A stretch of 64,000 nucleotides of DNA from the UHGV virus genome UHGV-1367859, one strand, 5' to 3'. Origin of the DNA: a virus. The notes under the pieces are model-generated. The model saw only the letters and a program-made list of their open reading frames with translations. It did no database searches and was not told the DNA's origin. Made by a program: the position numbers and the translations under genes. Of the stretch, positions 16,117-62,497 are shown one piece after another. Numbering within the stretch: the first letter of the stretch is position 1; each line of letters begins with the position of its first letter.

Positions 16117-16125
16117 CAAGTAAGT

Positions 16126-16196: not shown

Positions 16197-16202
16197 CTAT
16201 AT

Positions 16203-16275: not shown

Positions 16276-16290
16276 CTAAATCGAAATATT

Positions 16291-29551: not shown

Positions 29552-29574
29552 TAAATGATAAATGAATTTTAAGT

Positions 29575-30712: not shown

Positions 30713-31138
30713 ATGAAAAAATATATAATTTGTTGGATAATAGTAATAGCAAGTATACTTTCATCAAGCTTAATATCCTGCACAACTACAAGAGAGGTTG
30801 AAGTTCCTGTTTACATCGAGACTACAAAGACTGAATATATCAACTAGCTTTATAAAGATAGCATATTTATACATGATAGTATTGATAGATATATTTCAGG
30901 AGATACTGTGTATCAGTATAAATACAAGTACATATATAAGTATCTGAACAGAACAGACACTATAGTTAAGACTGATAGTATAGAAGTCCCTGTTGAAGTA
31001 AAGACAACTGAAATAAAGGAAGTCAATAAGTTAAAGGGCTATCAATCATTTCTTATGTGCTTTGGATTTGGCTTTATCCTTATCCTGCTTTATAAGGCTA
31101 TTAACTTTGGGAGAACCATTTTTAATAAGAGCAACTAA
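30713..31138 (+). CDS. lipoprotein with C-terminal TM helix (o-spanin-like candidate), one in-frame TAG
   Basis: MKKYIICWIIVIASILSSSLISC is a lipoprotein signal with a lipobox Cys. The C-terminal segment is FLMCFGFGFILILLY. Track ORF 30908..31138 is its C-terminal part. Confidence 0.4.
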
Positions 31139-34982: not shown

Positions 34983-35384
34983 ATGGGTCTCAGGCAGCAG
35001 TTCAAGATAAGGAAGTATGACTGGGATGTAGTAATATATTACACTGTAGATGAGAAATAGAAGACTGAGATAGTCACTGAACTTAAAGAGCTTCAGCCTG
35101 ACAAAGAAACCTTTGAGAAACTGGAAAGGAACTTGATGAACTCGGAACTTGATACAGGTTTCATATACTCAAGCTTCTATAAGAAGTTCTCACTTATAGT
35201 CATACATAAGGCTTCAAGTATAGGAGAATTTGTTAACACCTTTGAGCATGAAAAGAATCATCTTGAAATGCACATATGTGAGGCTCTTGACATCAATCCT
35301 TACTCTGAGGAAGCTGCAATACTTAGTGGTGAAACAGCTATGCAGATACTCAATGAAGCACTCTATAATATAGCTGAGCTATAA
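34983..35384 (+). CDS. small protein with HExxH motif (HEKNH), one in-frame TAG
   Basis: ATG 34983 to TAA 35382. The track shows only the C-terminal 83 aa (35133..35384). Confidence 0.35.
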
Positions 35385-36696: not shown

Positions 36697-38211
36697 ATGG
36701 CTGGAAAACTGAATAAGTTCCAAATGATTGGCTTTTCTCACTGGAAAGGTCTGACAAAGGACAACCACCTTGGTCAAATCTTCCAGCTTGCTCCACAGAA
36801 GGCAACTAACCTAATGGTACAGCTATTAGCTTGGTATAGAGGTAAGACTCTTGATACCTTCCTAAGCCAGTTCCCTACAAAAGAGTTTGAAGATGACTCA
36901 GAATATTACTGGGATGTAATTGGCTCTACCAGAAGGAACATTCCTCTGCTTGAAGCAAGAGATGAGAATGGCAATGTAGTAACCGCAACAACTGTTGCCA
37001 ATGTGGGTGTTGGTACAGCTGTATTTGAGCTTGTCTTCCCTGAAGACTGGTTTGCTGATGGTGAAGTAATTGTAGGTAATCTGAATGAAGTATATCCCAT
37101 GAGGATTCTTGGTAATCCGAGAATGGAAGGTACTAATGCAGTTTACAAGGTAGAGCTAATGGGTGGAATAACCCAAGGTATTCCTGCTGAGAGACTCCTT
37201 CCAGGAGAAAGATTCAGCTATGAATATGCTCCTGTAGAAAGAGCACTTTCAAGGAAAGTTGGTGATGTTAGATTCACTTCTCCCGTATCTATGAGAAATG
37301 AATGGTCTACCATCAGAATCCAACATAAGGTACCTGGCAATATGCTCAACAAGAAACTTGCATGTGGTATTCCTGTAACAAAGGAAACTCCTACAGGTTA
37401 CACTAAGTCTGTGGTTAACATGTGGATGCACTATGTTGACTGGGAAGTTGAACAGACATTCTCTGAATACAAGAATAACATTCTTGCTTTTGGTAGAAGC
37501 AATAGAAACAACAATGGAGAGTATCTGAACTTTGGTAAGTCAGGTGAAGTTATCAAGATGGGTGCTGGTCTGTTTGAACAAATGGAAGTAGCAAATACCC
37601 AATACTACAACAAGTTCAGTCTGAAACTTCTTGAAGATGCTCTGTATGAACTGTCTGCATCCAAGCTTGACTTTGGTGACAGGTACTTCGTCATTAAGAC
37701 AGGTGAAAGAGGTGCTATACAATTCCATAAGGCTGTACTTCAGACTGTAAGTGGATGGACTCAGTTCACACTTAATGGTGATGCTCTGAATGTTGTTGAG
37801 AAGACACAAAGTACTCTTCATACTAATGCTCTTGCAGCTGGCTTCCAGTTTGTAGAGTACAGGGCACCTAATGGTGTAAGAGTGAAGCTTGATGTTGACC
37901 CATACTATGATGACCCAATAAGAAACAAGGTACAACACCCTGATGGTGGACCTGCCTTCTCTTACAGGTATGACATCATGTACATTGGTACTATGGACCA
38001 GCCCAATATCTTCAAGTGTAAGATTAAGGGACAAGATGAGTTCAGAGGTTATCAATGGGGATTGAGAAATCCTTTCACAGGTCAGCTTGGTAATCAATTC
38101 ATGTCATATGATGAAGATTCAGCTACCTTCCATAGGATGGCTACTCTTGGTATTTGTGTTCTTGACCCAACTAGAACAATGTCACTTATCCCTGCTATAC
38201 TACAGGGCTAA
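36697..38211 (+). CDS. major capsid protein candidate
   Basis: 504 aa, which matches the size of crAss-like HK97-fold capsid proteins. It is TAG-free, follows the scaffold-like gene and is followed by a strong terminator. Confidence 0.45.
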   Translation: MAGKLNKFQMIGFSHWKGLTKDNHLGQIFQLAPQKATNLMVQLLAWYRGKTLDTFLSQFPTKEFEDDSEYYWDVIGSTRRNIPLLEARDENGNVVTATTVANVGVGTAVFELVFPEDWFADGEVIVGNLNEVYPMRILGNPRMEGTNAVYKVELMGGITQGIPAERLLPGERFSYEYAPVERALSRKVGDVRFTSPVSMRNEWSTIRIQHKVPGNMLNKKLACGIPVTKETPTGYTKSVVNMWMHYVDWEVEQTFSEYKNNILAFGRSNRNNNGEYLNFGKSGEVIKMGAGLFEQMEVANTQYYNKFSLKLLEDALYELSASKLDFGDRYFVIKTGERGAIQFHKAVLQTVSGWTQFTLNGDALNVVEKTQSTLHTNALAAGFQFVEYRAPNGVRVKLDVDPYYDDPIRNKVQHPDGGPAFSYRYDIMYIGTMDQPNIFKCKIKGQDEFRGYQWGLRNPFTGQLGNQFMSYDEDSATFHRMATLGICVLDPTRTMSLIPAILQG

Positions 38212-38273: not shown

Positions 38274-39269
38274 ATGGCAAAGAAAAATATGGAAGAAATA
38301 GATGTAGCTCAGATTGACCTATCTGATGAGTTGCCTCTACAAGAGGTGCCAAAAGTTGTTCCTATAGTTGAGGAACAGCCCGCAAGAAGAGCACCAAAGC
38401 AGCTAATAAACTGCTTAAGAAATGAAAGAATCATTGTGAGACATATACCCAAGCTTGGTGGTATGATTACTAATCCCAAACATATACTCTATGGAGGTAT
38501 GGCCGAGAATGCTACCAAGACATTTACAGTACCTAGGTTAAGCTCAGGTATGTACGTGAATGTACTGACAGATGATGAAAAGGCTTTCCTTGAACATATC
38601 ATGAGACTTGAGGTAAATGCTCTATCTATCTATAGAAAAACAGATAACTTCTGGGATGACACAAATGATAAGGGTATCTCAAGGGTAAGACTTACCAAGC
38701 AAGATAATTATTTTAATCTGGCAGACCCAGAAGATTATATCAGATATAAGATTCTTCTAGCTAATAAGAACTATATTGCTCCCTCACTTGAGGCACTATA
38801 GGATGCTCCCAAGGCAAGCTATCAGTTTGTAATCATTTCTGAAGGTGATGAAACTAAGAATGCTAAGGTTAACATGAGTACTACAATGAAGTGCTATAAG
38901 GAGTTTGGTAAGATAGAGGAAGATGCAGATACACTGAGAGTCATCATTGAAACTATTGATGGTAGACCCCTTGCTTCTACATCTAAGCTTGAGTTCTTAC
39001 AGACCAAGGCTAATGACCTTATCCAAGCAGATAGTAAAATCTTCCTTAGAGCTATTACAGACCCAATGCTTCCTACCAAAGTCCTTATTAGGAAAGCTAT
39101 TGAAGCAGGTCTTATCTCTAATAGAGGAAATTATCTATATCTAAGGAGTGATAATGCCCCATTATGTGAAGCTAATGAAGAACCTACACTCAACATAGCA
39201 GCTAAGTATCTTAATAATCCCAAGCATCAAGAAATTAAATTTTCTCTTGAGGCTAAGTTAAGGCAGTAA
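38274..39269 (+). CDS. hypothetical virion protein with in-frame TAG at 38799
   Basis: Track ORFs 38274..38801 and 38874..39269 share one frame across the TAG. TAA stop. Confidence 0.5.
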
Positions 39270-39287: not shown

Positions 39288-40082
39288 ATGTCGCAAATTG
39301 AAAACCTTATGACTGCGGAAGAAAGAAGAATAAGAAATTAGGAATTTAGTAATGAGTTTGATATAATTTACAACAGCATTACAAGTAATCAGGCTCCTGG
39401 TTTGGATGAATATGAGAAGTCTGTATTTCTAACTAAGGCTCAAGATGAAGTAGTAAAAGCTTATTTTAGTCCAAAAACTAATAAGTCTCAAGAAGGTTTT
39501 GACGGAAGTGAGATAAGGTAGATTGATTTCTCTATGCTCGTGGGAGACCGTACAATAGCAGATGCAGACTCTTTTTTAGATGCACACTTTGGCAATAGAA
39601 AAAGCAGTAAAAGTATCATCCTTCAAGATGATATATTCATGTTTATCAACGAGTATGTTACAGTTTAGAGAGGTAATAACGAAACTAGATTAACTGTTAT
39701 CCCTATTAGTTACTTGGAGTATAATAGACTCACTAGCAAACCTTACAAATATCCTCTAAAAAACCAAGCTTGGAGATTGCTTATTTCTGACAGTAATAGA
39801 AAGAAAGTTGAATTAATTTTAGGATATTAGGATTCCTTAATTAGTTATACCTATAGATTTGTTAGACGTCCTAAAGCTATTAGACTAAGTACATTTGACG
39901 GTCTTACTATAGGAGGTGAGAGTAGTGAGGAATGTTGTGAGCTTGACCCAATACTATTTCCAGAGATTATTCAAAGAGCTTGTGAGCTAGCTAAGGCTGC
40001 TTATATTGGAGACCTTACTTCACAGGTTGCTCTTGGTCAGACATCACAGACTAATATGGGTATTGTAACTCAAAGTAGATAA
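39288..40082 (+). CDS. virion protein, paralogue A (5 in-frame TAGs)
   Basis: One frame runs from ATG 39288 to TAA 40080. EFSNEFD ... DEYEKSVFLTKAQDEV is homologous to the N-terminus of the next gene. No track ORF covers it. Confidence 0.5.
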
Positions 40083-46033: not shown

Positions 46034-49000
46034 ATGATGTATTCAGATAATCATATATTTAAAGGCCTAAGGAGAGATGTTCACCCATCAAGACAAGATG
46101 AGTCTTTTTTATGGGATGCTTTAAATGTGAGACTTACTAATAGGGATAGTGATACTGGGTTTTCTATCACTAATGAGAAGGGAAATACGGACACTGGTGT
46201 TGTTTTTGATGGGTAGTACGTAGGACATTGTGTGCTTAATAGATACTTAGTAGTATTTACTGTAAGTTAGAATGACACTCAGGAAGTATCTAGAATATAT
46301 AGACTCCATGAAGATAAAGGGGAGTGGATTAAAGTTACTCTATTTGAAGGAGTGCTAGGTCTTGATGCTAATCACCCTCTAGAAATATTAGGGGATAGTG
46401 AGTCAGTTCTTGTGAATAAGTTGTATTGGACAGATGGAATTAACCAGCCTAGAGTTATTAATATAACTGCCCCAGAGTTGAAACTTCCTGAAGATATAGC
46501 TAGTAAAGTTATAGTAGACGGAGTTAATTTCTCAAATCCATAGAAAAGTGAGGGAGTTTCCTAGGAAGTTATAGAAAATCTAGAAAAGTGGTATGAAAAA
46601 GGAAATTGGATATACAGAGCTGAGTCTCCATTTGATTTTGTATAGAACCTATAGTTAAAAGAAAGAGTACTGGTAGGTAGAAGTTCCAGTCATGGAGAAT
46701 TTTCTCCTGGAGTAATTCAATATGCTCTTACATACTTTAATAAGTATGGGCAAGAAAGTAACATATTCTATGTATCTCCCATATAGTATATAAGGAATTA
46801 TGATAGAGCTGGTAATCCAGAAGAGAAGGTTATAACTTCTTTCACAATTAAAGTAGAAAATGTTGATAACTTTGATTATATAAGGGTTTATTCTATACAT
46901 AGAACTTCACTAGACGCATAGCCTACAGTTAAGATTGTAGCTGACTTAGACTTAAAAGATTGCTAGGAGGAAAGTGCTGAAGGAGAATACTGGTATGATG
47001 TGTTTGGTTCTGAGGATTAGCTGGTAAAAACAATTGAATATACAGATACTGGTCTTACTGGTTCAATAGAAGACCCTGCTAAACTATTATATACTGGGGG
47101 ACAAACAATATTAGCTGGAACTATCACTAGCAAAGAAGGAGTGATGTTTTATGGAAACATTACTGTTCAGAAAAATACTAAAGAACTAACTACATTACTT
47201 CAATAGGAAGAGGCTGAAAATGGGGACTCTTTAGGGTTAACAGATTGTTTTTTAGCCGAAGATACTTATGATAATTAGGGTATAAATAAATACTATCCTT
47301 ATCTACCATAGTTTAAGCCTGGTCATTTTAAGGCAGGAGAAACATATAGATTAGGAGTTCAATTTTAGTTTAAGACTGGAGAATGGTCAGAACCTATTCC
47401 ATTAAACAAAGTCATAAGGAATAGTGATGGTGATGGTGATGGTTTTCTTGATGTAGAGTTAAATAATTCATATTCTTGGGGCACTATTGACGGGGTGGAT
47501 ACTAAGGAACTTTAGTTATTCCCTAATGCAACTGCCTCATTATTAAAAGCTGGAGTAAGAAGGGCTAGAACTTGTGTTGTTTTCCCTAAGCCAGCGGAGA
47601 GAAATATTATATGTTAGGGAGTTTTAAATCCTACTGTCTACAGTGTGAGAGGAAGGCACATGAATAACCCATATGCAATGTCATCTTGGTTCTTTAGGCC
47701 ATCTCCTGTATATGTAGATGGAAAGCCAAAAGAAACCTCTACCTCGATAGATTAGGGGTCGACTATTTAGTATAAACATAATTATACACTTTTCAGTGGA
47801 GGTAATAGAAGTGCTGAAATATAGTCATCTCTGCCAGGAGATTCCAATAAGTCAATATAGGAAATTATTTCTCCCTCTGATGGTATAAAGTCTCATTATT
47901 CAACTTTTGCTGTTGATAGTAACTTAGTTACTTTACATTCCCCAGAAATTGAGTATGGGTCCTATATAAATACTACTCAATTAGAAGGAGCAAGGCTAAA
48001 TATTGTTGGAGCCGCTAGCCTACATGGATTGTATGGAGATATAGATTTAGCAGTGACCTCTAAAGCTAGTTCTCAGGCTGGAGGATTTATACATCATCCT
48101 GTAGGATTTCCAGTGAACTGTACTACTCCTAATACTACTGTTAATGGAGGATTTGTATCATCATGTTGTTTTGAAGATAAAATACTAAGAGGGGATTTTT
48201 TAGATGAGGATAGGACAGGTATTGTTAAATATTTAGTTTATCCTTGGCATAGAACAGGCTCACTAAATAATGATATTGTCAGGTCTCCTGAGATTATAGA
48301 GAAATCCGGAAGTGATAGAACAGCTATACTAAAATGGAAGATTATTTCCAATTTAAAGTATTTTGAAAGTAAGTCAACTTTTTTTAACTCTAATAACCAC
48401 AATATTAAAATTACAACTCCTAAGTTATTCTCTTCTAAAGAGGTTACAGGCTTAACTGTTCGTGTTCCACATTTAGACTAGGATGTACTATACTTTGGAA
48501 ATGTAGATGATATTGTATCAGCCACATCAGATTATCCTATTTATGCTGGTACTGATGATAGTATTTCACAAGTATCCCCTACTAATGTATCTACTTCTGG
48601 GGAGTCAGTAAGAATGAAGTATAAATCATCTCCTCACTTAGTATTCTCTTTATATGATGAGGATAACCCTAAGGTTATTCCAGTACTACCATACACTTCT
48701 GTTACTGGTGAGACTATAACTTCATAGTATACCCCCTCTGGATGGGAGAATAATACTTCTACCAGTACTTCATATCCTATCCTTTCATTTATAGGCTCAA
48801 AAACCTTTTATGGGACTTATAACAAAGAGGGGAACTTAGTACTAGATGTTGACGATACAAGTGTGACTGCTCTAGGAACCTATCAGATTGTAATGGCTTA
48901 CATTGGATCCATAGCTAAGCGTGTATTGGTTAAAAGGGTAAAGATAGGAGAAGCAGGGTATTGGCAGGTACAAAACTCAGGAACTAAAGTGACTGTTTTA

Positions 49001-50803
49001 GTGAAGAAAGGATGTATAATCTATCATCACTATGTAAATGGTGAGTGGGTAGGAGTTCTTCAGAATGCGGGGCCAATAAAATGGGGTCCTTTTGAAAACT
49101 TACAGGATGGTCATGATAACTTTTAGTATCTTGGGGATTAGGTATTATTAAACTTAAAGGTATCTCTCGGAAATATAGTTGGTATTACATCTTATAAAAT
49201 GTATTCAGAGCCATCTACAGATAATACAGATAATACAGATAATACAGATAATACGTTTACCATCCAGAATAGCACTCTGTAGTTACTTGAAGAGGATAAA
49301 GATTATTCCCCCACATTACCTATAGCTGAATTAACATAGTGGGTTGACCCAGACACTAGGTTTGGAGGTAAATCGGATGAAGCTATCAAAAATAACTTAT
49401 GGGTTCCAAGTAGTGAGTCAGTTCCTCTTGTATCAACTCCACATAAGATAATTACGATTCCTTATGCCTATGGGGATACATGGTGTACAAGATATGATTG
49501 TGTAAAGACTTATCCTTTTGCAGATGATGATACTAATTAGATAGTAGAAATAGGTTCATTTATGCTTGAGTCACATATTAATCTTGATGGAAGATACGAT
49601 ACTAAAAGAGGGCAGCTATCCAACTTCGACATTACTCCTGACTCTTATAAGATAAATGAAGTATACTCTTAGTTAGATAACTTCTTTAACTACAGAACAC
49701 TAGACAAGGACTATTATAAAATAGATACATTTCCTTACTAGGTAGCATGGTCCTTAAAGAAAAATCCCTAGTCTATAATTGACCCATGGACTAATGTCAC
49801 TTTAGCTAGTACCTTAGACCTTCCTGCTGATAAAGGGTCTGTAACATGTCTAACCTCCATCAATGATACTCTTATTGGCTTCTAGGAAAAATCTATTAGC
49901 TAGATTATGTTTAATTCTAGAGTATAGCTCAATCCTACAGACGGAGTACCTATTGAGATAGGAAATTCAAACAGAGTAGATGGGTTCAGGATTCTATCCT
50001 CTACTATTGGATGTGCTAATAAATGGTCTATTATTCCTACCTCAACAGGTCTATTCTTCATAGATAACGAGTCCAAAAGTATTTATAGATATGGTTAGGA
50101 ATTAGTAAATGTAAGTGAGCTTTCAGGAATGAGTTAGTGGGTTAAGAATGATGTTGACTTATCAGAGTGGACTCCTACAGGAATGGGAGTAAGAAGCTTT
50201 GTTGATAATATGAATGGGGATGTATATTTCTCTCCAGCTCATGGCGAAGAAGCTTTATGTTTCTCAACTAAGCTTAACTAGTTCACTTCCTTTTTAAGTT
50301 ATGGTGAAACTGAAGGTATGTTTGACTTTGAAGGTGGTTTTTACTCTATAAAATAGGAATAGGATAAAGTTAGGCTATGGGAGAACTTCACTGGGGTATA
50401 TAATGAGTTCTATGGTAACTTTAAACCATTTAGTTTCACTTATATATCTAATGGTAATTCTCCTTACACAAAAATTTTTGACACAGTGGAAGTTAATGCT
50501 GAAGTACGGAACTTTGGCCAAAAGGATAATTCTGATAAGCCATTTGATTTTATCCAAGCAGAGAATGACTATTAGAAAGCTTATACTGACCTCACTAATA
50601 GTAGAGATATAAGGAAGAAGTTTAATATATGGAGGATTAATATTCCTAGGTCTCCTTATGTAGCACAAGATGGTAAAGATGTTATAAGGCACTATGGTAG
50701 GGCAAGGATTAGAAATCCATGGAGTGAAATAACTCTAGGGAGTGCCTCACATAAAAACTAGAGAGTGACAATATATAATGTATCTACTAAGTACTCTATG
50801 TAA
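46034..50803 (+). CDS. giant virion/tail-fibre-like protein (about 1590 codons) with about 45 in-frame TAG codons
   Basis: ATG 46034 is in frame with track ORFs 45965..46216, 48029..48481 and 48863..49126 (coordinate differences are multiples of 3). The frame reaches TAA 50801 with no TAA or TGA. The track shows about 4.7 kb of gaps here. Confidence 0.55.
49220..49255 (+). repeat. tandem 9-bp repeat (GATAATACA) x4 encoding (DNT)4
   Basis: gataataca-gataataca-gataataca-gataatacg, inside the giant gene. Confidence 0.8.
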
Positions 50804-50905: not shown

Positions 50906-53380
50906 ATGGCAAAGAAACTTATTAAAAAAAGAACAAATAAACTCCTTTTTGGGAGGAATAATTATTTTGCATGGGGAGGTACTCCTGATTATCTAGCTGG
51001 AATACCAGGTATGGATGATGCTTTTTCTATGCCTGGTATTAGAGAAACTATGCCTGGAGAAGCTATATCAACAGGGCTGCAAGCTCTTACTAAAACTACT
51101 CAACCAACTGCTGCTTCAGCAACCCTTCCTCTTCCACCATCTGGAACTACTAATCCATCCTTAGGACTTACTCAATTGGGCAAACAGGGTATAGGACTAG
51201 GAAGTGCCTTAACTGGTTCAATTGTAGGTAATGTAATTGGAGGAAAAAGGTCTAGTGCAGTAGGAAATGGAATTAGTAGTATAGGCTCAACTGTAGGTGG
51301 AGCCTTAATGTCTGTAAACCCAATGGTTGGGGGTATAGTAATGGGAGCAAGTTAGCTACTTGGAGGAGTTACTAATAACTTATTTGGTTCTGAAAGAAAT
51401 GAAAAACTTATAAGTTCTTTAAATAATCAAATATCCCAGGCTGGACAGTTTAAATCAAGTGCTACTGATTATGATGCTTTAGCTTAGGAGATGGCTACTG
51501 CTCCAACAGTTGGATACTTTAATCATGATGATTTAGGCAGTTAGGGTGCATTTAGTCATGATATAGATGATTTATATTAGGATATGAGCAAAAGAGCTGA
51601 TACTGCTAGGCAATATGTTAGTTCTTCTTTAGAAAATGCACAGTATAATATAGGATAGACTAGGAAGAGGGATATACTTAGAAACATAGCCTCATATGGA
51701 GGTCCATTGTACTTTGCAGAAGGTGGAGGAATACATATTAACCCAGAGAATAGAGGTAAGTTCAATGCTACTAAGAAGAGAACAGGAAAGACTACAGAGG
51801 AATTAACCCATAGTAAAAATCCTTTAACTAGAAAGAGAGCTATATTTGCTTAGAACGCTGCTAAGTGGCATCATGCCTTTGGAGGAGACCTTATGACACA
51901 TGGAGCTGACTTTGATACAGGACTTGTTCTTGTGGGTAATGGAGGTACACATGAAGAAAACCCTAATGAAGGAGTTCCTATGGGAATGGATGCTGAAGGC
52001 ATTCCTAACCTTGTAGAAGAGGGAGAAGTTATCTTCAATGATTATGTATTTAGTAACAGACTAAGAGTTCCAAAAGCAGTAAGAAAGAAATATAAACTAA
52101 GAGGAACAAAACCTCTCACCTTTGCAGATGCTGCTATTCAAATGAGCAAAGAATCTGAAGAGAGGCCTAATGACCCTATAAGTCAAGCAGGTCTTGTAGA
52201 TAGTATGGCTAAGTTGATGTCAGTACAAGAGCAAGTAAGAACCAAAGGTGATAAGAACAAGTTTGCAAAAGGTGGTAAGATGGGAAGAGTCTATGCTGGT
52301 GAGCAAGGAGACCCTTATTCTAACCTACTAGCTTTAGGTTTAGGTCCCATAAATCCTTCCTTTACTACATTCGGTTTTGATAGTCCTACCCCACAAGATA
52401 CCCCAGCACCAAGAAATAAAATGGGCATTGTACTTGGAGGATACACTTCAAATCCTACTGTAATAAAGCCAGGTGAATCTACTATACCAGGAATAATTAG
52501 AACTAACAATACTAAATATCCATCTCCTCCTCTTATAAATAAAAAAGATTCTATTGGAGATAGCACATCAACTGAACTGGCTCCTACTTGGATGAGATAT
52601 GTACCTGCATTTGCTTCTGGTGTAATGTCTATCACAGATGCACTAGGTTTGACCAATAAACCTGACTATGGAGAAGCAGAAGCTGCACTTGAAGCATCAA
52701 GAGGAGCAGGCAACTATACTCCTGTAAAATTTAGTCCTGTTAGTAACTATTTAACCTACAGACCTTTTGATAGGGATTTCTATATTAACAAACTCAATGC
52801 TCAAGCTGGAGCTACTAGGAGGAGTATCCTTGATACTTCAGGAGGTAACAGAGCAACTGCAATGGCAGGGCTTCTTGCAGCTGATTATAATGCACAAGGA
52901 AGGATGGGAGACCTTTTCAGGCAAGCTGAAGAGTATAACCTTGCACAGAGACAAAAAGTTGAAGAATTTAATAGAGCAACTAATATGTTCAACTCTGAAG
53001 GAATATTCAAAGCTGACCAAGCTAACCAAGCAGCACAGCTTCAGGCAAGGTCTGCATCTCTTAAGGGAGCACTTACTGCTGCTGAACTCAGACAAAGAGA
53101 GAGACAGCAAGCTGCTGCTGCTAGGAGTGCTAATCTATCAAACTTTATCAACTCTATTGGTGATATTGGCAGGGAGAACTTTTCAAGAAATATGATTATA
53201 AGCGACCCATCTAAGTACTATAGCATCGGGGATAATGGAGAAATTTCCTATAAAGACCCCTTCTATGATTTATCCGAAGCAGAGCAGGATTATGTAACTG
53301 GCCATGCTAGTAGAAAGAGTAAAAGCAAAGGTAGTACTAAGAAAGCAAAAGGTGGTTATTTAACTATAAATAGAAAATAA
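50906..53380 (+). CDS. virion protein (about 824 aa) with 6 in-frame TAGs; Gly-rich N-terminus
   Basis: Track ORFs 50906..51355 and 51893..53380 share a frame (987 nt apart). The intervening codons are open except for TAGs at 51353, about 51485, 51545, 51578, 51655 and 51852. Confidence 0.5.
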
Positions 53381-53381
53381 T

Positions 53382-55160
53382 ATGGCAAGCTACGGTTTAA
53401 TACTTAATACTAAATTCAAGCCATTCTCCTATGCAGAGATGCTTGCACCTGTAGCTGCTGCTACTCAAGCACATCAAGCTCTAGAAGAGGAATATGGCAA
53501 ACTATCTGCTAAGGCTAATGTATGGGAAGAAATGGCTAATGAACAAACAGACCCTTACGCATATAAGATGTATAAGACCTATTCTGATGACCTTGAGACT
53601 AGAGCTGAACAGTTAATGAGGTATGGTCTTAATCCAGCAAGTAGGAAGAGTATGCTTGATATGAGAGCAAGATATAGCAAGGAAATAGTCCCTATTGAAA
53701 CTGCTTATAAGAGAAGAGAGGCACTGGCACAGGAACAGAGACAAGCTATGGCTAAAGACCCTACTCTAAGGTATCAAAGATATGCTAGAGATATGAGCTT
53801 AGACGATTTTATAAAATCTCCTTCATTAGATTATGGCAGTAGTTATTCAGGAGAGCTGCTTAGAAAGCAGGTAAGTCAAATAGTAGCTAATTATCAGAGA
53901 GAATTGACTGACCCAGGCAAGCTGGAGAAACTAGGACTACCTTATCAGTATAAGATTAAGAAACAGCAAGGAGCTACTTCTGCTGATATATGGGCTACCA
54001 TAAACAGAGATGCTAGTATGGGAAATCCTGAAGCAGTGGCCTTTCTTACAAGAATGAGGGATTCAGCTTTACAAGCATCTGGAGTATATGACTGGGCCAG
54101 TAAAGAGGACTTGGTGCACTTCCAGAACTTTGCTAATCTTGGATTGGCTGATGCTATTGGTAAATCTGACATAAGTACAGTTAAAGATGACTATAGTATA
54201 GCTATGGCTAAAGCTGCTTATAGTGGTCTTGGAAGGTCTAGAAGGACTAGAAGGGGAGGTGATTCAAATGATAATGACAGATTGCCCTACAGAAGAATAT
54301 CTACTATTTCTGACACTGATAAGAAATCAATGAGTAAAGGGAAATCAGTACTAGAATTTGTAAATGGGATGATGGGTCATTACGGAGAATTAGCTAATGC
54401 CAACAAGGCAGTAACCCTTTCTAGAAAAGACTCTAAGAAGTTGCTAGAGACTCCCGCAGATGCCACAAGAACGCAGGTTAATATCGGGGCAAGGACTAAT
54501 GGGCAAGAAATAGATACAAGCCTTACTTCTGCAAATGCTGGTAGACGGAGGAAATCTCTTGATGAATATGCTTCCAAATATGGTACTTCTATAGACTACT
54601 CTAGTGAAGCAGCATATGAAGCTAGTATAAAAAAACTGCAAGGAGCTGTACAACAAGATATACAGAAGTCAATGTCACTTAGCTCTGTATGGTATCCTAA
54701 TTCTACAAATCTTGAATATGTAACGGAGCCAATTGTCCAAGCAGTTCAGACTTTAAGTACTACAGCTGCATTAAGAGGTGAAAGAACAGGCATAGTTGAT
54801 AAAAAGGGCAAAGCAGTTTCTTCAAAAGACTTAGACAAAATAGTCTCAAGTAGAGCCAAAATTCAGTTTAATTTTAATAGAGGAGGTGACATAGAGGCAT
54901 GGTTGAGCTATAAAGAAAAGGAGAATGGGGAAAATAAATATATTAAAATACCTGTTGATGCTCTTGATATGGGGGATGGAACACTTATAGGCCTATATAG
55001 TAAAGCCTCCTCAGCTCAAAAATCTGGGGACTTTATAAGAGCAGCAGAGTATATGGATGATATACAATCATATCTAGATGCAGCTGCAAATTCTAGAGCA
55101 GAGGTACAATCAAAATCAAGTTCAAATTTAGAATTTTCATTCCCATGGCTAGAGGATTAA
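53382..55160 (+). CDS. hypothetical virion protein
   Basis: 592 aa, TAG-free, with a TAA stop. Confidence 0.45.
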   Translation: MASYGLILNTKFKPFSYAEMLAPVAAATQAHQALEEEYGKLSAKANVWEEMANEQTDPYAYKMYKTYSDDLETRAEQLMRYGLNPASRKSMLDMRARYSKEIVPIETAYKRREALAQEQRQAMAKDPTLRYQRYARDMSLDDFIKSPSLDYGSSYSGELLRKQVSQIVANYQRELTDPGKLEKLGLPYQYKIKKQQGATSADIWATINRDASMGNPEAVAFLTRMRDSALQASGVYDWASKEDLVHFQNFANLGLADAIGKSDISTVKDDYSIAMAKAAYSGLGRSRRTRRGGDSNDNDRLPYRRISTISDTDKKSMSKGKSVLEFVNGMMGHYGELANANKAVTLSRKDSKKLLETPADATRTQVNIGARTNGQEIDTSLTSANAGRRRKSLDEYASKYGTSIDYSSEAAYEASIKKLQGAVQQDIQKSMSLSSVWYPNSTNLEYVTEPIVQAVQTLSTTAALRGERTGIVDKKGKAVSSKDLDKIVSSRAKIQFNFNRGGDIEAWLSYKEKENGENKYIKIPVDALDMGDGTLIGLYSKASSAQKSGDFIRAAEYMDDIQSYLDAAANSRAEVQSKSSSNLEFSFPWLED

Positions 55161-58100
55161 CAGGTATAAATACAAAAGAAGGGGCGGCTAGAGAAGCAGA
55201 CAGGATGGGTCAAGCTCCCACAAGTTTTAAATCAGCAGTAAGGCAGAGACTAAGAGAAACTCCCTCAACTCAGTATATAGGAGATACTGTACCAGAAACA
55301 TTTGGTGACTCATCATATGATTATAATGCTGTGCTTCCTAGTGAACTTGAAGACCTTCAGGAGCTGAGAGCTTCTGAACAATCAGGTGTGAACCAACTAG
55401 CAGCAGGTATAGCCAAGGGGGCTATACTTGCTGGCGCTACATTTTTAGATGGTACTGTCGGACTGCTCCTAGGAGCTGGAGCTGCTATAAATGAGGGGAG
55501 ATGGTCAGCTATTTGGGATAATGACTTCTCAAAAGCTATGCAAGCTGTAAATGAGTGGTCAGAAGAAGCTCTTCCTAATTACTATTCCAAAGAAGAGCAA
55601 GAAGGGCCATGGTATGACAACATATTTACAGCTAACTTTATTGGTGATAAGTTCATTAAGAACTTAGGGTTCTCAGTAGGAGCCTTATATTCAGGAGGTG
55701 TAACCTCAGCTGGGCTTAAAGCTACAAAGCTGCCTCAATTGATAGGAGCTATAACTAACAGTGCTAAAGCTCCTGCAATGGTATCTACAGCTGTTGGGGC
55801 TGTTACTTCGGCAGTAAATGAGGGAAGAATTGAGGCTTTGAACAATTCTAAGGACTGGCAAAACCTTAAAGTACAGGAGCTGGATGATATATGGAAGCAG
55901 AAATTAAACGAAAAGTATCAGCCTGAGCTAGATGCCTTAAAAGCAGAATATGATGCTGCTCTCGCAGAATATGAATCAACCAAAGGAACTCTTCAAAGAG
56001 CAGGTTCAGGGGATAGTACAGCTTTGGCAGACCCAGCTTATTAGAAGTACAGAGCCAAACTTGATAGTCTTGACAAAAAGATGGAGGCCCTACAAAACAC
56101 TATGAGTGCTATGTGGGACAACAGGTCAGCTGATAAGACATATAGGGAAGCCTTAGGTAGAATCTCAGAGGATAGACTTAAGATGGGAAATACAGACTTG
56201 CTTCTCAATCTTCCTATACTCATGGCCTCTAATATTGTTCAATTTACTAAGTTTTATTCTAGGGGATTTAACACTGGCAGGAGAGCCAGTGTGGGATTGG
56301 CTGAAGGGGCAACTAGAAATGCACCAAGATACATTGGAAAGGAATTTTCGCCTATAAAGGCAGCTGGAAAAGTTATAAAGGGCGCAGCAGCAGAAGGTAC
56401 AGAAGAAATATCTCAGAGTGGCGCCAGTGCAATATCAGGGGATTATTATTCTACCGATGTTAACAACTTCATCAAATCAAAGATAGACCCAGATGCAGAG
56501 CAAGAGACCTTAAGTTGGACTAAATCTTTTGCTAAGGGTATCAATGAGACTATTAATGATAGTTCAGCTTGGGAGGAGTTTTTCATTGGTGCACTTACTG
56601 GTGCTTTGGGGATTCCCACATTTAGAAGTATGAAGAACTCAGAGGGGGGATTTAGACTTCCTATAGAAATACAAGGTGGTGCTTGGAATGAAATAAAAGA
56701 GTATCAAAGAGAGGTTGCAAGGTCCCAAGAAGTTGCGAATTATCTTAACCAAAGGGTGCAATCTCCTGAGTTTCTCAATTATTATCAGGGTCTCATCAGA
56801 CATAATAAGTACCAAAGAGACATGAATCAGGCTGTTGAGGATGATGATGAGTTTAACTTCAAAAATGCAGAACATGCTCAGTTTGTATCTGATATTATAA
56901 TGTTTGATAATGCAGGAAGATTGGAAGACCTTAGAACTCTTATAGATTCTTCCTTTGATATGTCAGATGAAAACTTGCAGTCTATAGTAGAGAATACTAC
57001 TTCTACTGATGAAAATGGTAAAAGGATTGGCCCGTTTGTAGATAATAATGGGAATCCTATGTATGCTACTGAAGAGGGCAAGAAGTAGATGACTGCTAAG
57101 CTTACTGCTTCCAGGGATAATATGATTGCTACTTTAGACAATTATGTAAAAACTAAAGAGAACATTGATATAAGAACAGGTGGAAATCTCACAGATGAGC
57201 AACTGTCAGAACTCACTTGGATGAAAACTCAGGTAGATGACTGGACTAAGAGAGCCAATGAAATGACTCCCCTAGTCAAAAAGACTCTTGCTGATTTAAG
57301 CAACAATTTGGAACTCAGACTTGCATCTACTCTTAATAATGTAAGTAGTGAAGGAAATGCCAGTGATATAGAAGCAGTAGGAGAACTTGCTAATAAACTT
57401 GGCATAGGGAGTAAAAGAATTAAGCAACTTATGGAACTATCTCACATGGAAGATAGTAGGTTGGCTGCAATTTTGACATCCCCTAAAAATGAGAAATTTG
57501 TAGAGGGTCTCATAGAAGATATTAACAGCTTTGGTAGTGATATTATAGCATCGTTAGATAAACAAAATGTGGTGAGGCTCCTACAAGACTTACCAAAAAT
57601 AGGTAAGGGGGTACAGACCTATAATAAGAAGTTAGAAGAGTACCTTACAGACCCTGCTAAAATTCAGGGGGATATTGAAGCTGCTACCCAACAGGTAGCT
57701 ACTCAACAAGCTGAGAAGAAAGCTGCTGATTTAAAAAGCAGACTATCAGCTGCAAATAGTGTATCTGAACTAAGGTCTATCATTACTGAAGAGAACATGG
57801 ATTCTGCTGTAGAGGGTGTTTTAGGGGAACTTGAAGCAGAAGGCAACCAAGTTGCAAAGAATTATAGAGAAACTGCCCAATACAATAGAGAACTGAATAA
57901 GGCTCTTTCAGAAACTGGGGAGGATGAATAGGTACTTCAAGATGCCATGTCCTTGTGGTAGGAACACTCTAATGCTGCTGAGAATCTTGAACAACTTGCT
58001 AATCCTAACTCCATCTTTATCAATAATGAAGAAGCCTTTATGGAAGACTCAGGTGGTGATGTAGATGTTGCTGGTAATAGGTTCCAAAATGCAAGATATG

Positions 58101-61100
58101 CTCTTCAGAGAGCCATGTCAAAGGTTAATAATGACATAAAGTTTAAGAACAGGTTCTCTGAGGAATATAAGAGACCTATAAATGAGCCTGTAAATGACAA
58201 AGGTATTGATAAGGATGAAACTGGAGACAGTGGCACTTCTACTGTACCTCATGTGAACCCAAATGCAACTCCTATTGAAACAACCCCTGCTCCTGTTGGC
58301 AATGTAACTGCTGAGATGGTTGCATCTGAGAATAGTGATTCTAATAGGAGAGTGGAGACTCAGAGAGACCTTGACAGGGGTCAACAAGGTCAAAGGAAGT
58401 ACTATAGACCTGCTATTCCTGAACTTCATATAGAAGCAAGTAAGGAAGGGGACTTTAGACCTTTCGACACTGTAGTATCTGAAAGAGAGTCAGGTGTAGA
58501 CTTCTCAGGTATCTATAGTTACCTCAGAGACAATGGAGCATTCAACTATGTTAATGCAGCTAAGTTGAAACCTGGAGATACTCTTGGTTTCATGATTGAC
58601 CCTGAGTTTAATGACCATACTATCTTCTTAGTAGATACTAGAAACAATCAGATTGTCGGTAGTATTGATGAATCAGATGCTTCAGTTGCTAGATATGAAG
58701 GTCTTGAAAACATCATAAGAAAAGTAAGAGATGAGTTCCAAAAAAGAGGGGAGGAGGCTACTGGCAAGTTTTTTGCTACCCCTCAAACAAGAGTGTCAAA
58801 AATGATGGTAGGTAGAATCCCTTATAGTACAGAAGAGAGAAGCCTTGCTGATATTCCTGGTGTACTTGATGGAGAAACTAAGCCTATCTTTGGTATTATC
58901 AAAAATGGTGTGCTCACTACTAACGAGAAGATTGATGACAGGCTTATAATCAAGCCTGTTGATATGTCTCAGAAAGAAGGTAGACTCTACTTACTTGTAC
59001 CTAATGGAGCTGGTACTTATAGTCTTGCTGCTGTGAGAGTTAGGCACTTTAATACACAAGAGTTCAACCTTGCTGATGCTACAGTTGCAAATACTCCTAT
59101 AGGTAAAGGTATCAATGAATCTCTTGATAGGCTTGCAGATGCAACATCACAGGATGACGTATCTATAGCAATGAAGGAACTTGCCCAGGACATCTATATG
59201 CAGGATGTTATGGTAACTTGGTTTGATGCTAAAGCTGGTAGTGGTATTGTAGTAAGTAAGAAGGTGAGGAAGCCTGATGGCACTTATGAAATGGTTACTA
59301 TCAATGGGCAGGAGCAAATTAAGGAAGAGAAAACTACTATCTATTATCAGAGTAGCAAGAAGGCTATTGAAGTAAATGGTCTTGAGTATACCTTTGAGGC
59401 AGCTAAAGATGCTGGTATAGATATGTCTCTCTTTGGTCAACCAAGAGACCCCTCTGAAATAAGAAGAGACATACTTGATACTATACTTAGGTATAATCTT
59501 CCTCTTCAAGTAAGTGCTTCAAAGATAAATGAGTCAAGTTACAATAATAGGGTAATTAAGTCTAACATACTTACTTCAAACCTTAGAGAAGCTAAGGTTA
59601 TAGGGAGCTGGTTTACTACTGACTACTTTGACAATCAAGGCAATCTTCAAAGAGCTATAAGTCCTTCCTCAGTTAAGCCTACACCAAGTAGAAGAACATC
59701 TTCTCCTGTAGGAGGAACTGAAGGAGTAGTACAAGGCACAAGAGTAGTAATTGGTAATACTCCTTATGTAGTTGACCTTAAGCATAGTATAGCTGTCAAT
59801 GAGAAGACTGGTGAAAGAAGAGCCTTCTCTACTTTCAATTCTCAGGGACTTATTGACATGGCTTGGGCACAGGAAACCTTTGGGGACTCTACTGAATCCT
59901 CAAGGATGACTGAGAATAAAATTATTACACCTAGGGGAGAAGTTCTTAATAGAAATACTGGTAAATATATAACTGGTACAGAGGCACAAAGAATAAAGGA
60001 CAAGATAGCTGGAAGGAATCAGGTTGATGAAGTGAGAATTGCTCAATCCAAGAGAGTTATTGCTGACATCTATGAGAACCAAAAGAGAGTAGATAAGACA
60101 AGAACTGATAGTGACTACTATTATATTCTTGAGGATGATGGTCAGTACCATCAATATTCTAGAGTTCATAGTAGACTAGGAGATAACTGGCTTGGGGAGA
60201 GAACTGCTAACAATAATTCAGAAAGAGCACTTAAGGCAGGCACTGCTGTTGATAAGGTAATTAGAGATTTCTTCACATCTAAAGAAACCCCTGTAAAGCC
60301 TGATACTCTCTCAGAGTCTGCATTTATAGACTTGATTTCAAAACTTACGGAAATCAAATCTAGGATGGAACAAATGGGAGAAACCTTCATGGCAGATAAT
60401 ATTGTTCTATTCCAGAAATATGCTGATGGTTCAAGAGTGGCAGGAGAGGTTGATATTCTATCAGTTGATAAGAATGGCAACTTCAAAATCTACGATGTGA
60501 AGACTAGCAGGTATAGTTTCAGTGATAGATATTTTACTGAGAAGTCTTCTAAGCAAAGGATGAGCACTAAAGACTACTATACCCTACAACTCTCCGCCTA
60601 TCAGAACCTCTTTGAATCTCAGTATGGTGTAAGACCCACAAGGTTAGCTATTCTTCCTTTTGTACTTACATATGAGAATATATCCTCATCCAAGACAACT
60701 TTACCTAATGGTAAAAGAATAAGTTTAGCAGTACCATCTCAAACTTCTACTGGAGGCTATTTTAGAACTGATAAGACTGTATCTGAGGATGAAGCTAGAT
60801 TTGAAATGGTGGAGACTTCTAATGAAGAAGTTGAATTTGCTCCTATTTTAAGTTCTCAAGCTCATAAGACTTCTATGAAAGCTACTGATGCAAATAAGGC
60901 AGCTATAGAATTTGTAGGTGGAGACCCTAAAGAAGCTGTAGACCTTATATTAGTTGAAACAGGTAAAGGAACTAAAGGAGATAAAGGAAGGGTGACTATT
61001 ACTAAGAAAGCAAAGATATTTGCTGTTACTCCAGGTACTCCTTACGTGCCTCAAACTGAATCTAGAGTAGCTTCAATAGAAGGACAAAAAGGTATACCTA

Positions 61101-62497
61101 TTACCTATAATCCTGCTGTTAATGTACCTCTTGCTAGCTCAGTGAGAGCACCTCAGCAACAGAACTCTCTACCTATCTTTGACTCTACAATGGAAACACT
61201 GATTACTGACAAAGAGCAGAATAGGGTTCTTCCTGAGAATGCTTTTGAAGAGGGAGGTGAGATAGGCTACTATGAGAAAGATGGTAAAGTCTACACTGGT
61301 TATCTTAAGAAGATAGGTGAGATAGAAATTACACATCCTGAGGGGCATAAAACCAAAGAATCTATTTATGTTACTAAGGTAAGGGATAGAGGTTTTGGAA
61401 GAGAGGGAGAACTTGGAACTACTTCAGAATATTTACCAGTATTCAGTAATGGCAAGGCTATCAGTACTAGAACTAATTCTGCAAGTGATGCAGAAGCTGC
61501 TAACATAATTATGAAGGCACTATCTGCAAAACCAGAAAAAGTACTGGCTTTAGCTTTAGAGAAGACTATAATAAAATCTGAGAAACCAACTACAGAAAAA
61601 TCTCAGCAAAGCTCTCAGCCTAGTGGAGCAGCTTCTACTATACAAAGAGAAGATGCTATCAATAACCATGATGATGAGCTTGAAGATGACCTTGACCTAG
61701 GAAACCTTAGAAGAGTTGATGACTCTTCAAGGGGTCTATGGGATAGGGAAAAAGAGCTTGCTTGGCTAGAGAGAGTACTTCCTCAACTGTCTGAACAAGA
61801 CAGGGTAAAGGTAGTAAAGGGTCTTATTCAAGTTGCTAAGAATGGTCCTGTTGCTTGGGGAAGATTTAGTAATGGCATCATAGAGCTTTCTGATGTAGCT
61901 GCTGAGGGTACTGTGTACCATGAAGCTTTCCATGTGGTATTCAATCTTATGCTTACCCCAGAGGAGCAGGCAGCTCTGTTTGAAGAAGCTAAGAATATAT
62001 ATGGCGAGAAGTCTTTATTAGATTTGGAAGAGGACATGGCAGAAGGATTTAGAGAATATGTGGCTTCTCAGGAAAATAGAAGTTTTGGCAGAAAGATACT
62101 TGATTTCTTCAAGCAACTCTTTGCTAAGGTTACTAACTGGAAGCATATGAAGCCATCTCTTACTGCTTACTACCAGGCTATAAATCAAGGAAAATACAGC
62201 AAGGATACTCTACCCTTAAAATCTATAGAAAGACTTAGGGAAGAGCAGCCTACTCTAGAGATGCAGACTATCAAAGAAAAGGCTATTGCTAATGGGACTT
62301 TTATGAAAGCTCCTAATGGTAACCCTTTCTCAACAGAGAATGATGACATCAGATTCAGGACAGTTCCTAACTCCTCATGGTCAATAGTAGATAGCCAAGC
62401 AAGAGAACTTTTAGAGGCCAGAGGATGGACTGAAGAGAAGTTCAATTCAATATCTCAAGCTGAAAGAGACCAAGCAATAAAATGCTCAAGTCTTTAA
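55145..62497 (+). CDS. giant virion protein (about 2450 aa) with 4 in-frame TAGs and a C-terminal HExxH (zincin-like) motif
   Basis: Track ORFs 55145..56044, 56081..57088, 57089..57931 and 58040..62497 are all in one frame. They are joined across TAGs at 56042, 57086, 57929 and 57965. HEAFH lies at about 61919-61933. TAA stop. Confidence 0.5.

What the first reader, a model, noticed from the sequence alone, without database searches (positions are those of the whole stretch)
46034..50803. About 1590-codon virion gene with about 45 in-frame TAG codons and no TAA/TGA: clearest case of genome-wide TAG recoding
Three separate track ORFs (45965.., 48029.., 48863..) lie in one frame. I read the DNA between them as open except for TAG triplets. 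The frame runs from ATG 46034 to TAA 50801. About 45 TAG codons and zero TAA/TGA over 4.7 kb is not compatible with chance or with a decaying pseudogene. The same pattern appears in these genes:
- 9689..10261
- 10392..11426
- the terminase
- the portal
- 26741..27655, 27651..28439, 28454..29551, 29575..30633, 30713..31138, 34983..35384
- 38274..39269, 39288..40082, 50906..53380 and 55145..62497
TAA and TGA still act as stops, and I found no in-frame TGA.
Basis: seen in the sequence. Interest (0 to 1): 0.9.

Follow-up and report, generated by a model that had tools for sequence, protein, structure and literature searches.

The report
TAG-as-glutamine crAss-like phage tail gene

Summary
The chance of that is about 5e-41. 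An independent assembly that is 99.3% identical carries the same 40 TAGs.

The product (1,589 aa) is the crAss-like muzzle protein, a homologue of crAss001 gp44 (PDB 7QOK, E 8.5e-213; Pfam crAss_MUZ and crAss_MUZ_C).

TAG encodes glutamine. In seven standard-code homologues, Gln fills 30% of the TAG-aligned residues against a 2.7% background, and five columns are invariant Gln. A tRNA with anticodon CUA and a tRNA-Gln-type body lies at 15639-15711.

Only TAG-as-sense raises coding density: 69.5% to 88.4%, versus 70.8% for TGA-sense and 72.5% for TAA-sense.

"Genome-wide" needs qualifying. In-frame TAGs occur in 20 of 40 plus-strand ORFs of at least 100 aa between 8.6 and 62.5 kb. The minus-strand blocks have essentially none. 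No gene needs TAG as its stop.

TAG load is very uneven. It is 65% of Gln codons in the muzzle gene and 0% in the major capsid gene. It tracks low gene GC and module ancestry.

TAG-to-Gln recoding of late genes in crAss-like phages is published and proteomically validated. This is a new member of a known kind and of low interest.

The parts
46034..50803 (+). Muzzle protein gene (crAss001 gp44 homologue), 1,589 aa. It has 40 in-frame TAG codons read as Gln, which is 65% of its Gln codons, and ends in TAA.
   Evidence: PDB 7qok, E 8.5e-213; Pfam crAss_MUZ and crAss_MUZ_C on the 97%-identical P0001. The start at ATG 46034 fits the N-termini of six homologues and follows the TAA of the upstream ring-1 gene.
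15639..15711 (+). tRNA with anticodon CUA, the predicted tRNA-Gln-type amber suppressor that decodes TAG.
   Evidence: ARAGORN; its automatic label is 'Pyl'; Rfam tRNA, 55 bits. It shares U1, the 5' acceptor half and the whole D-arm with the phage's tRNA-Gln(UUG). Its only full-length annotated matches are CTA-anticodon 'tRNA-Gln' genes of crAss phages cr53_1 and cr60_1.
11559..16276 (+). Array of 21 tRNA genes that includes the suppressor and tRNA-Gln(UUG) at 11559-11631. It lies upstream of, and in the same direction as, the structural genes.
28454..30633 (+). Two unannotated genes (28454-29551 and 29575-30633) downstream of the portal and upstream of the lysis cassette, probably tail fibre or appendage proteins. 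They are the other most TAG-rich genes: 10/17 and 14/21 Gln codons.
   Evidence: No PHROG or Pfam match. The fibre role is inferred from position only.
10392..11426 (+). Unannotated gene with 7 in-frame TAG (44% of Gln codons).
19748..24241 (+). Large terminase subunit, 1,497 aa, with two intein-type inserts and 5 in-frame TAG.
   Evidence: Two of the three TAG positions that align to crAss001 gp19 align to Gln.
24342..26741 (+). Portal protein with 2 in-frame TAG.
   Evidence: phrog_6547, E 1.7e-143
50906..53380 (+). Cargo protein 1 (gp45 homologue) with 6 in-frame TAG.
   Evidence: Pfam crAss_CARG1
55145..62497 (+). Virion RNA polymerase-like giant protein (gp47 homologue), 2,450 aa, with only 4 TAG among 108 Gln codons.
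36697..38211 (+). Major capsid protein with 0 TAG among 23 Gln codons, the contrast case.
   Evidence: (Pfam Crass_capsid, E 2.8e-219)
39288..40082 (+). Tail ring protein 3/4 paralogue with 4 in-frame TAG.

Best explanation
The window is part of a crAss-like phage genome (Crassvirales, closest to Steigviridae, the 'beta' group). This phage translates TAG as glutamine (genetic code 15) in its structural and virion-protein module.

The interval 46034-50803 is one intact gene for the tail-tip muzzle protein. [quoted passage not shown]

Proposed mechanism, with the basis for each step:
- The phage encodes its own tRNA with anticodon CUA on a tRNA-Gln-type body (shown). The host glutaminyl-tRNA synthetase is presumed to charge it with Gln (inferred, by analogy with supE-type suppressors).
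- Once this tRNA accumulates, ribosomes read through TAG and make full-length virion proteins (inferred).
- Genes needed before that point, in the minus-strand blocks, carry no TAG, so they are translatable under the host's standard code (TAG absence shown; timing inferred).
- TAA and TGA remain the only terminators, and TAG has been purged as a stop (shown).

With 40 TAGs in one ORF, per-codon decoding must be about 98-99% efficient to give a useful yield of full-length protein. This is therefore effective reassignment, not leaky suppression (arithmetic inference).

The uneven TAG load, from 65% of Gln codons in the muzzle gene to 0% in the capsid gene, reflects both module ancestry and gene-specific constraint.
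For: - **Gene is intact.** 40 TAG, 0 TGA and 0 internal TAA, with P about 5e-41. The same 40 TAGs occur in an independent assembly.
- **Identity of the protein.**
  - There is full-length homology to more than 3,000 muzzle proteins of about 1,460-1,640 aa.
  - PDB 7qok gp44 matches at E 8.5e-213, and Pfam crAss_MUZ and crAss_MUZ_C hit the 97%-identical P0001.
  - The gene order ring-1, muzzle, cargo-1, cargo-2, RNAP is conserved, as in crAss001.
- **TAG is Gln.**
  - Seven homologues verified to have zero in-frame TAG were used as a control. Four are from cultured phages and one has a cryo-EM structure.
  - They carry Gln at 64 of 212 aligned residues in the TAG columns, against a 2.7% background. 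Five columns are invariant Gln.
  - Among 120 database homologues, Gln is present in 120/120 at six columns.
  - TAG and CAA/CAG interchange at the same columns between recoded relatives.
  - In other genes, 5 of the 17 TAGs that align to crAss001 orthologues fall on Gln.
- **Code test.** Coding density is 69.5% under code 11 and 88.4% under code 15. Controls give 70.8% and 72.5%.
- **Suppressor tRNA.** It has anticodon CUA and a tRNA-Gln-like body.
- **Stop usage.** crAss001 uses TAG as the stop for 4 of 31 late-block genes, whereas no window gene needs it.
- **Strand distribution.** There are 106 TAGs in plus-strand ORFs of at least 100 aa and 2 in minus-strand ones.
- **Literature.**
  - TAG-to-Gln is confirmed by metaproteomics in crAss-like structural proteins (PMC9523058).
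Against: - No direct protein, tRNA-charging or expression-timing data exist for this phage.
- 'Early' and 'late' are inferred from homology and strand only.
- Many TAG columns are variable, so Gln is demonstrated at conserved positions and extrapolated to the rest.
- Two or three near-terminal TAGs could still act as stops: 31967-32380 codon 136 of 137, 6715-7104(-) codon 109 of 129, and portal codon 790 of 799.
- The lysis-timer version of the model fits poorly here. The amidase (14357-14956) and the holin-like gene (31318-31677) contain no TAG, whereas Borges et al. found amidase and spanin families preferentially recoded.
- No release factor or aminoacyl-tRNA synthetase was found in this 64-kb window. 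How host RF1 is out-competed is unknown.
Confidence: 0.93

Rival explanations
1. The interval is a decaying pseudogene, or a string of separate small genes, and the TAGs are true stops.
For: Under code 11 the interval breaks into 41 fragments, and standard gene callers would report a few short ORFs.
Against: - Zero TAA or TGA over 1,589 codons has P about 5e-41.
- There are no frameshifts, and homology to intact muzzle proteins runs the full length.
- TAGs sit on invariant Gln columns.
- All 40 TAGs are conserved in a second sample.
- The muzzle genes of four further TAG-recoded relatives have 19-32 TAGs each and no TAA or TGA.
Confidence: 0.01
2. TAG is reassigned, but to an amino acid other than glutamine, for example pyrrolysine (ARAGORN's label), Tyr, Trp, Leu or Lys.
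For: - ARAGORN labels the CUA tRNA 'Pyl' by default.
- Several TAG columns are dominated by Tyr, Trp, Lys, Arg or Gly in homologues.
Against: - Every conserved TAG column is Gln. Six columns are 120/120 Gln, and none is invariant for any other residue.
- Gln is enriched about 11-fold over background.
- The tRNA body matches tRNA-Gln genes, not the atypical tRNA-Pyl architecture.
- No Pyl-synthesis genes appeared among about 40 proteins scanned.
- Proteomics in related phages found Gln (PMC9523058).
Confidence: 0.03
3. TAG is not reassigned but only leakily suppressed (low-efficiency read-through). The TAGs would act mainly as attenuators, so very little full-length muzzle protein is made.
For: - The muzzle is a low-copy protein, at 6 per virion in crAss001 (PMC10172136), while the high-copy capsid gene has no TAG.
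- The capsid gene is also TAG-free or nearly so in four recoded relatives.
Against: - Forty sequential read-through events at 90% efficiency each would yield 1.5% full-length product, and at 50% essentially none. An essential virion protein could not be made that way.
- The 12-copy ring proteins 1 and 2 and cargo-2 have no TAG, while a ring-3/4 paralogue has 4, so TAG load does not scale with copy number.
Confidence: 0.03

Closest known systems
TAG-to-Gln (genetic code 15) recoding of late genes in crAss-like phages (Yutin et al. 2021, PMC7886860; Borges et al., bioRxiv 10.1101/2021.08.26.457843; Peters et al. 2022, PMC9523058)
   Same: - In-frame TAG occurs in hallmark structural genes (terminase, portal, tail proteins).
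- The phage encodes its own tRNA(CUA) within a large tRNA array.
- The replication or early block is free of TAG.
- Coding density rises by 19 points under code 15.
- The phage belongs to the Beta/Steigviridae-like group, where recoding was reported.
   Different: - No qualitative difference.
- Quantitatively, the muzzle gene is extreme: TAG is its majority Gln codon at 40 of 62.
- Unlike the ~105-kb crAss-like set analysed by Borges et al., the amidase here has no TAG. The genes that prefer TAG are the muzzle gene and unannotated genes upstream of the lysis cassette.
crAss001 muzzle protein gp44 (PDB 7QOK/7QOL/8CKB; Bayfield et al. 2023, PMC10172136)
   Same: - Homologous along its length (E 8.5e-213).
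- Same Pfam families.
- Same genomic position between ring protein 1 and cargo protein 1.
   Different: - Only about 34-39% identical.
- About 220 residues longer, consistent with the insertions reported in the crass and IG2 domains.
- Written with 40 TAG codons, whereas the crAss001 gene has none.
E. coli supE-type amber suppressor (tRNA-Gln with anticodon CUA)
   Same: A tRNA-Gln body carrying a CUA anticodon that inserts Gln at UAG.
   Different: - Here the tRNA is phage-encoded and serves wholesale sense decoding of over 100 TAG codons, rather than weak suppression of rare nonsense alleles.
- Its charging enzyme is untested.

Membership tests
Code-15 (TAG to Gln) recoded phage | In-frame TAG, but not TAA or TGA, in conserved hallmark genes | tested here: met
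   Terminase 5, portal 2, muzzle 40, cargo-1 6 and RNAP-like 4 TAG. None has an internal TAA or TGA.
Code-15 (TAG to Gln) recoded phage | Coding density rises by more than 10% under code 15 versus code 11 (criterion used in PMC9523058 for contigs of 5-100 kb) | tested here: met
   Density rises from 69.5% to 88.4%. TGA-sense and TAA-sense controls give 70.8% and 72.5%.
Code-15 (TAG to Gln) recoded phage | TAG positions align with glutamine in standard-code homologues | tested here: met
   Gln fills 64 of 212 aligned residues against a 2.7% background, and five columns are invariant Gln in 7 homologues verified free of in-frame TAG. Six columns are 120/120 Gln.
Code-15 (TAG to Gln) recoded phage | Suppressor tRNA with anticodon CUA encoded by the phage (common but not universal in the family) | tested here: met
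   tRNA(CUA) at 15639-15711 with a Gln-type body.
Code-15 (TAG to Gln) recoded phage | Recoding restricted to late (structural or lysis) genes, with early genes compatible with the standard code | tested here: inconclusive
   - TAG is confined to the plus-strand structural block: 106 TAGs versus 2 in minus-strand ORFs.
- Temporal class is inferred, not measured.
- The identified lysis genes (amidase, holin-like) have no TAG.
Code-15 (TAG to Gln) recoded phage | Peptides with Gln at TAG positions | not testable with these tools
   This needs virion LC-MS/MS. It has been done for related crAss-like phages (PMC9523058).
Crassvirales (crAss-like phages), Steigviridae-like | The crAss hallmark structural gene set in conserved order | tested here: met
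   - Pfam Crass_capsid, crAss_AuxCP, CrAss_Ring_1, CrAss_Ring_2 and CrAss_Ring_3_4, crAss_THA, crAss_MUZ, crAss_CARG1 and crAss_CARGO2 are all present.
- The capsid protein is 78-80% identical to those of crAss001 and cr85_1.
- Formal ICTV genus or family demarcation was not computed.
Crassvirus muzzle protein (Pfam PF25731 / PF25729) | Sequence match above the curated thresholds to both muzzle domains, and to the solved gp44 structure | tested here: met
   - crAss_MUZ scores 797.5 bits and crAss_MUZ_C 57.5 bits, each against a cut-off of 27, on the 97%-identical P0001.
- PDB 7qok matches at E 8.5e-213.
Crassvirus muzzle protein (Pfam PF25731 / PF25729) | Hexameric gatekeeper assembly at the tail tip | not testable with these tools
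   Inferred from homology to crAss001 gp44 (PMC10172136).
Pyrrolysine decoding system (ARAGORN's label for the tRNA) | tRNA-Pyl architecture, pyl genes, and Pyl or Lys-like residues at UAG positions | tested here: not met
   - The tRNA body matches tRNA-Gln genes.
- Conserved TAG columns are Gln.
- No pyl genes appeared among the proteins scanned.

The most novel reading that the evidence does not exclude
TAG density may be a tuned, gene-specific translational control rather than neutral drift. The 6-copy muzzle gatekeeper and the probable tail-fibre genes would be written mostly in TAG so that they are made last, or only once suppressor tRNA is saturating. The capsid gene is kept TAG-free or nearly so across recoded relatives. 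The near-quantitative decoding of 40 TAGs in one ORF would additionally require an unidentified phage factor that neutralises host release factor 1.
Probability: 0.12. Interest if true: 0.55.

Novelty: new member of a known kind. Interest (0 to 1): 0.15.

Why it matters
The main value is practical. Under the default bacterial code this phage's tail-tip gene and about 20 other virion genes are shredded into meaningless fragments. The genome must be annotated with TAG as Gln.

Biologically it is one more, fairly extreme, example of an already validated phage strategy. The gene-to-gene contrast (muzzle 65% TAG, capsid 0%) and the module boundary between cargo-1 and cargo-2 could feed a comparative study of how recoding spreads through mosaic phage genomes. 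Neither point changes current understanding.

Tried and rejected
- **Megablast of the gene against 50,697 phage records:** no match.
- **DNA references to the family scanners:** They were re-run with TAG-to-Q translations.
- **TAG load tracks protein divergence from crAss001:** rejected (Spearman rho 0.10, p 0.68).
- **TAG load tracks third-position GC:** weak (rho -0.35, p 0.11). Overall gene GC does correlate (rho -0.68, p 4.5e-4).
- **Release factor or aminoacyl-tRNA synthetase genes in the window:** none found among about 40 proteins scanned with Pfam or PHROGs.
- **Global identity of the suppressor tRNA to the window's other tRNAs:** not discriminating (67-70% to Leu and Gln). The shared acceptor and D-arm, plus database matches to tRNA-Gln genes, were informative instead.
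- **The tmRNA as a novelty:** rejected. A tmRNA is already annotated in crAss phages cr106_1 and cr60_1.
- **Structure prediction and fold search:** not run, because sequence identity to a solved structure was already decisive.
Full report
**1. Observation**

- The frame from ATG 46034 to TAA 50801-50803 is 1,590 codons. It has 40 in-frame TAG, no TGA and no internal TAA.
- The other five frames of the interval each contain 64-183 TAA+TGA codons.
- Base composition predicts about 56 TAA and 34 TGA, so the chance of none is about 5e-41. In 500 shuffles the longest TAA/TGA-free run was 239 codons.
- An independent assembly from another sample (L008, 99.3% nucleotide identity) has the same 40 TAGs. 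They are not sequencing errors.

**2. What the gene is**

- Translated with TAG as sense, the 1,589-aa product matches crAss-like 'stabilization / virion structural' proteins across 82-93% of its length in 60 phage records.
- It also matches more than 3,000 full-length proteins of about 1,460-1,640 aa in the large protein database.
- It matches the solved crAss001 muzzle protein gp44 (PDB 7qok) at E 8.5e-213.
- Its 97%-identical database twin hits Pfam crAss_MUZ (797 bits) and crAss_MUZ_C.
- The neighbourhood reproduces the crAss001 structural atlas. In window order it contains:
  - portal and major capsid protein;
  - ring proteins 3/4 (two copies) and the auxiliary capsid protein;
  - tail hub A, ring 2 and ring 1;
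  - muzzle, cargo 1 and cargo 2;
  - the giant RNA-polymerase-like protein.
- The capsid protein is 78-80% identical to those of crAss001 and cr85_1. The phage is therefore a Steigviridae-like ('beta' group) crAss-like phage.
- In crAss001 the muzzle is a hexamer of about 1 MDa at the tail tip. It is thought to gate ejection of DNA and cargo proteins (PMC10172136).

**3. What TAG encodes**

To avoid circularity I put X at the 40 TAG positions.

- Among 120 database homologues, six TAG columns are Gln in 120/120 and several more are near-invariant Gln. No column is invariant for any other residue.
- Some database proteins may themselves have been called with TAG as Gln, so I built a control set. 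It has seven homologues whose DNA I verified to contain zero in-frame TAG: crAss001, Kolpuevirus 'frurule', DAC15, Cellulophaga phi14:2, cr126_1, cr85_1 and IAS virus.
- In that set Gln occupies 64 of 212 aligned residues in the TAG columns, against a 2.7% background. Five columns are invariant Gln, even in the marine Cellulophaga phage.
- Between recoded relatives, TAG and CAA/CAG interchange at the same columns.
- In other genes, 5 of the 17 TAG positions that align to crAss001 orthologues fall on Gln.

**4. Decoding machinery**

- The window has 23 tRNA genes. One has anticodon CUA, at 15639-15711.
- ARAGORN's 'Pyl' label is only its default name for that anticodon.
- This tRNA shares U1, the 5' acceptor half and the whole D-arm with the phage's own tRNA-Gln(UUG).
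- Its only full-length annotated matches in the phage collection are 'tRNA-Gln' genes of crAss phages cr53_1 and cr60_1. Those genes also carry CTA anticodons.
- Charging by host GlnRS is inferred, not shown.
- No release factor or aminoacyl-tRNA synthetase gene was found in the window.

**5. Window-level code test**

| Code | Non-overlapping ORF density |
|---|---|
| Code 11 (standard) | 69.5% |
| TAG-sense (code 15) | 88.4% |
| TGA-sense (code 4) | 70.8% |
| TAA-sense | 72.5% |

- Only TAG-sense turns the muzzle interval into one ORF.
- No gene needs TAG as its terminator.
- By contrast, crAss001 ends 4 of 31 late-block genes with TAG.

**6. How 'genome-wide' it is**

- In-frame TAG occurs in 20 of 40 plus-strand ORFs of at least 100 aa between 8.6 and 62.5 kb, 106 TAGs in total.
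- The 13 minus-strand ORFs of that size contain 2. One is in a likely shadow ORF and one is ambiguous.
- This is the published pattern of late-module recoding (PMC7886860; bioRxiv 10.1101/2021.08.26.457843).
- Three near-terminal TAGs could be either Gln or stops:
  - 31967-32380, codon 136 of 137;
  - 6715-7104 on the minus strand, codon 109 of 129;
  - the portal gene, codon 790 of 799.

**7. Uneven TAG load**

- TAG is 65% of Gln codons in the muzzle gene (40/62). It is 59-67% in two unannotated genes at 28454-30633 and 44% in 10392-11426.
- It is 0% in the capsid, auxiliary capsid, ring 1, ring 2 and cargo 2 genes, and 4% in the RNAP-like gene.
- Heterogeneity is highly significant (chi-square p = 3e-36). 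The muzzle against all other genes gives an odds ratio of 15 (p = 7e-20).
- TAG load does not track divergence from crAss001 (rho 0.10). It does track low gene GC (rho -0.68, p = 4.5e-4).
- Four more distant TAG-recoded relatives (L009, L013, L014, L015) also have TAG-rich muzzle genes (34-56%) and capsid genes with few or no TAG. A fifth relative (L016) uses the standard code.
- Part of the pattern is historical:
  - From the capsid gene through cargo 1, the window is closest to the recoded relatives.
  - Its cargo-2 and RNAP genes are much closer to standard-code crAss001 (34% and 46%) than to those relatives (23-29%).
  - Those two genes are the ones with almost no TAG.
  - This indicates a recombination boundary near 53.4 kb.

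**8. Mechanistic inference**

- Full-length yield over 40 TAGs is e^40 for a per-codon efficiency e. That is 1.5% at 0.90, 45% at 0.98 and 67% at 0.99.
- An essential virion protein therefore needs near-complete decoding. This argues for effective reassignment late in infection rather than leaky suppression.
- How host RF1 is out-competed is unknown.
- The 'lysis timer' form of the published model is not well supported here. The amidase (14357-14956) and the holin-like gene (31318-31677) contain no TAG. The spanin-like lipoprotein gene (30713-31138) has one.

**9. Comparison with the literature, and verdict**

- Yutin et al. (PMC7886860) reported 243 crAss-like genomes that use TAG-to-Gln or TGA-to-Trp. 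[quoted passage not shown]
- Borges et al. proposed the early-to-late code-switch model.
- Peters et al. (PMC9523058) confirmed Gln at TAG by metaproteomics in crAss-like structural proteins.
- The public protein database already holds this protein translated with TAG as Gln (P0001).
- The finding is correct and well observed, but it is a new member of a known kind. Interest is low.

Noticed in passing
window 4943-5338 (-): Phage-encoded tmRNA. The Rfam tmRNA hit scores 69.5 bits against a threshold of 47, with an intact tRNA-like domain. The tag reading frame is AEVDETPVRMAA followed by TAA. ARAGORN did not call it. A tmRNA is already annotated in crAss phages cr106_1 and cr60_1, so it is not new. 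A link to stop-codon read-through of host mRNAs would be speculation.
   Followed up: partly
window 19748-24241 (+): The large terminase is 1,497 aa, against 762 aa in crAss001. It carries two intein-type inserts: Intein_splicing plus LAGLIDADG_3 at residues 404-756, and a Hom_end homing-endonuclease domain at 1208-1262. Two of its TAG codons (583, 597) lie inside the first insert. Inteins combined with recoding were already noted by Yutin et al. 2021.
   Followed up: partly
window about 53380 (boundary between 50906-53380 and 53382-55160): Mosaic boundary. Genes from the capsid through cargo-1 are closest to TAG-recoded relatives. Cargo-2 and the RNAP-like gene are much closer to standard-code crAss001 (34% and 46% versus 23-29%) and contain almost no TAG (0/28 and 4/108 Gln codons).
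   Followed up: partly
window 14357-14956 (+), 31318-31677 (+), 30713-31138 (+): The lysis genes are nearly TAG-free. The amidase (Amidase_2 plus PG_binding_1), embedded in the tRNA array, has 0 TAG, and the holin-like gp28 homologue has 0 TAG. A 141-aa protein with an N-terminal lipoprotein signal (LISC) and a C-terminal membrane helix, possibly a unimolecular spanin, has 1 TAG. This differs from the preferential recoding of amidase and spanin reported for other crAss-like phages.
   Followed up: partly
window 18317-18982, 42833-43372, 44125-44832 (+): Three homing-endonuclease-like genes, similar to crAss001 gp37; one has a GIY-YIG Pfam match. They are interspersed among the structural genes.
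   Followed up: no
window 49217-49255 (+): A short in-frame tandem repeat inside the muzzle gene: ACAGATAAT repeated 4 times, encoding (TDN)4. It lies in a region that is gapped in most homologues.
   Followed up: no
window 31967-32380 (+), 6715-7104 (-), 24342-26741 (+): Near-terminal TAGs that could be either Gln or genuine stops. They are TAG-AAT-TGA at the end of 31967-32380, TAG at codon 109 of 129 in the minus-strand gene, and TAG at codon 790 of 799 in the portal gene.
   Followed up: no
window 45983-46033; L008 400-5220: The public database version of this protein (P0001, 1,606 aa) starts 17 codons upstream and overlaps the ring-1 gene. Alignment with six homologues supports the ATG at 46034 instead.
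   Followed up: partly
L002 3001-3316 (IAS virus NC_049978.1): The RefSeq annotation of the IAS virus muzzle gene starts about 105 codons downstream of where homology begins. The open frame also begins there (MIKQDNHAFQGM...), so the annotated N-terminus looks truncated.
   Followed up: no
window 1679-2470 (-), 4598-4918 (-): The minus-strand block encodes an SPFH/Band-7 domain protein and a Myb-like DNA-binding protein. Both are TAG-free.
   Followed up: no
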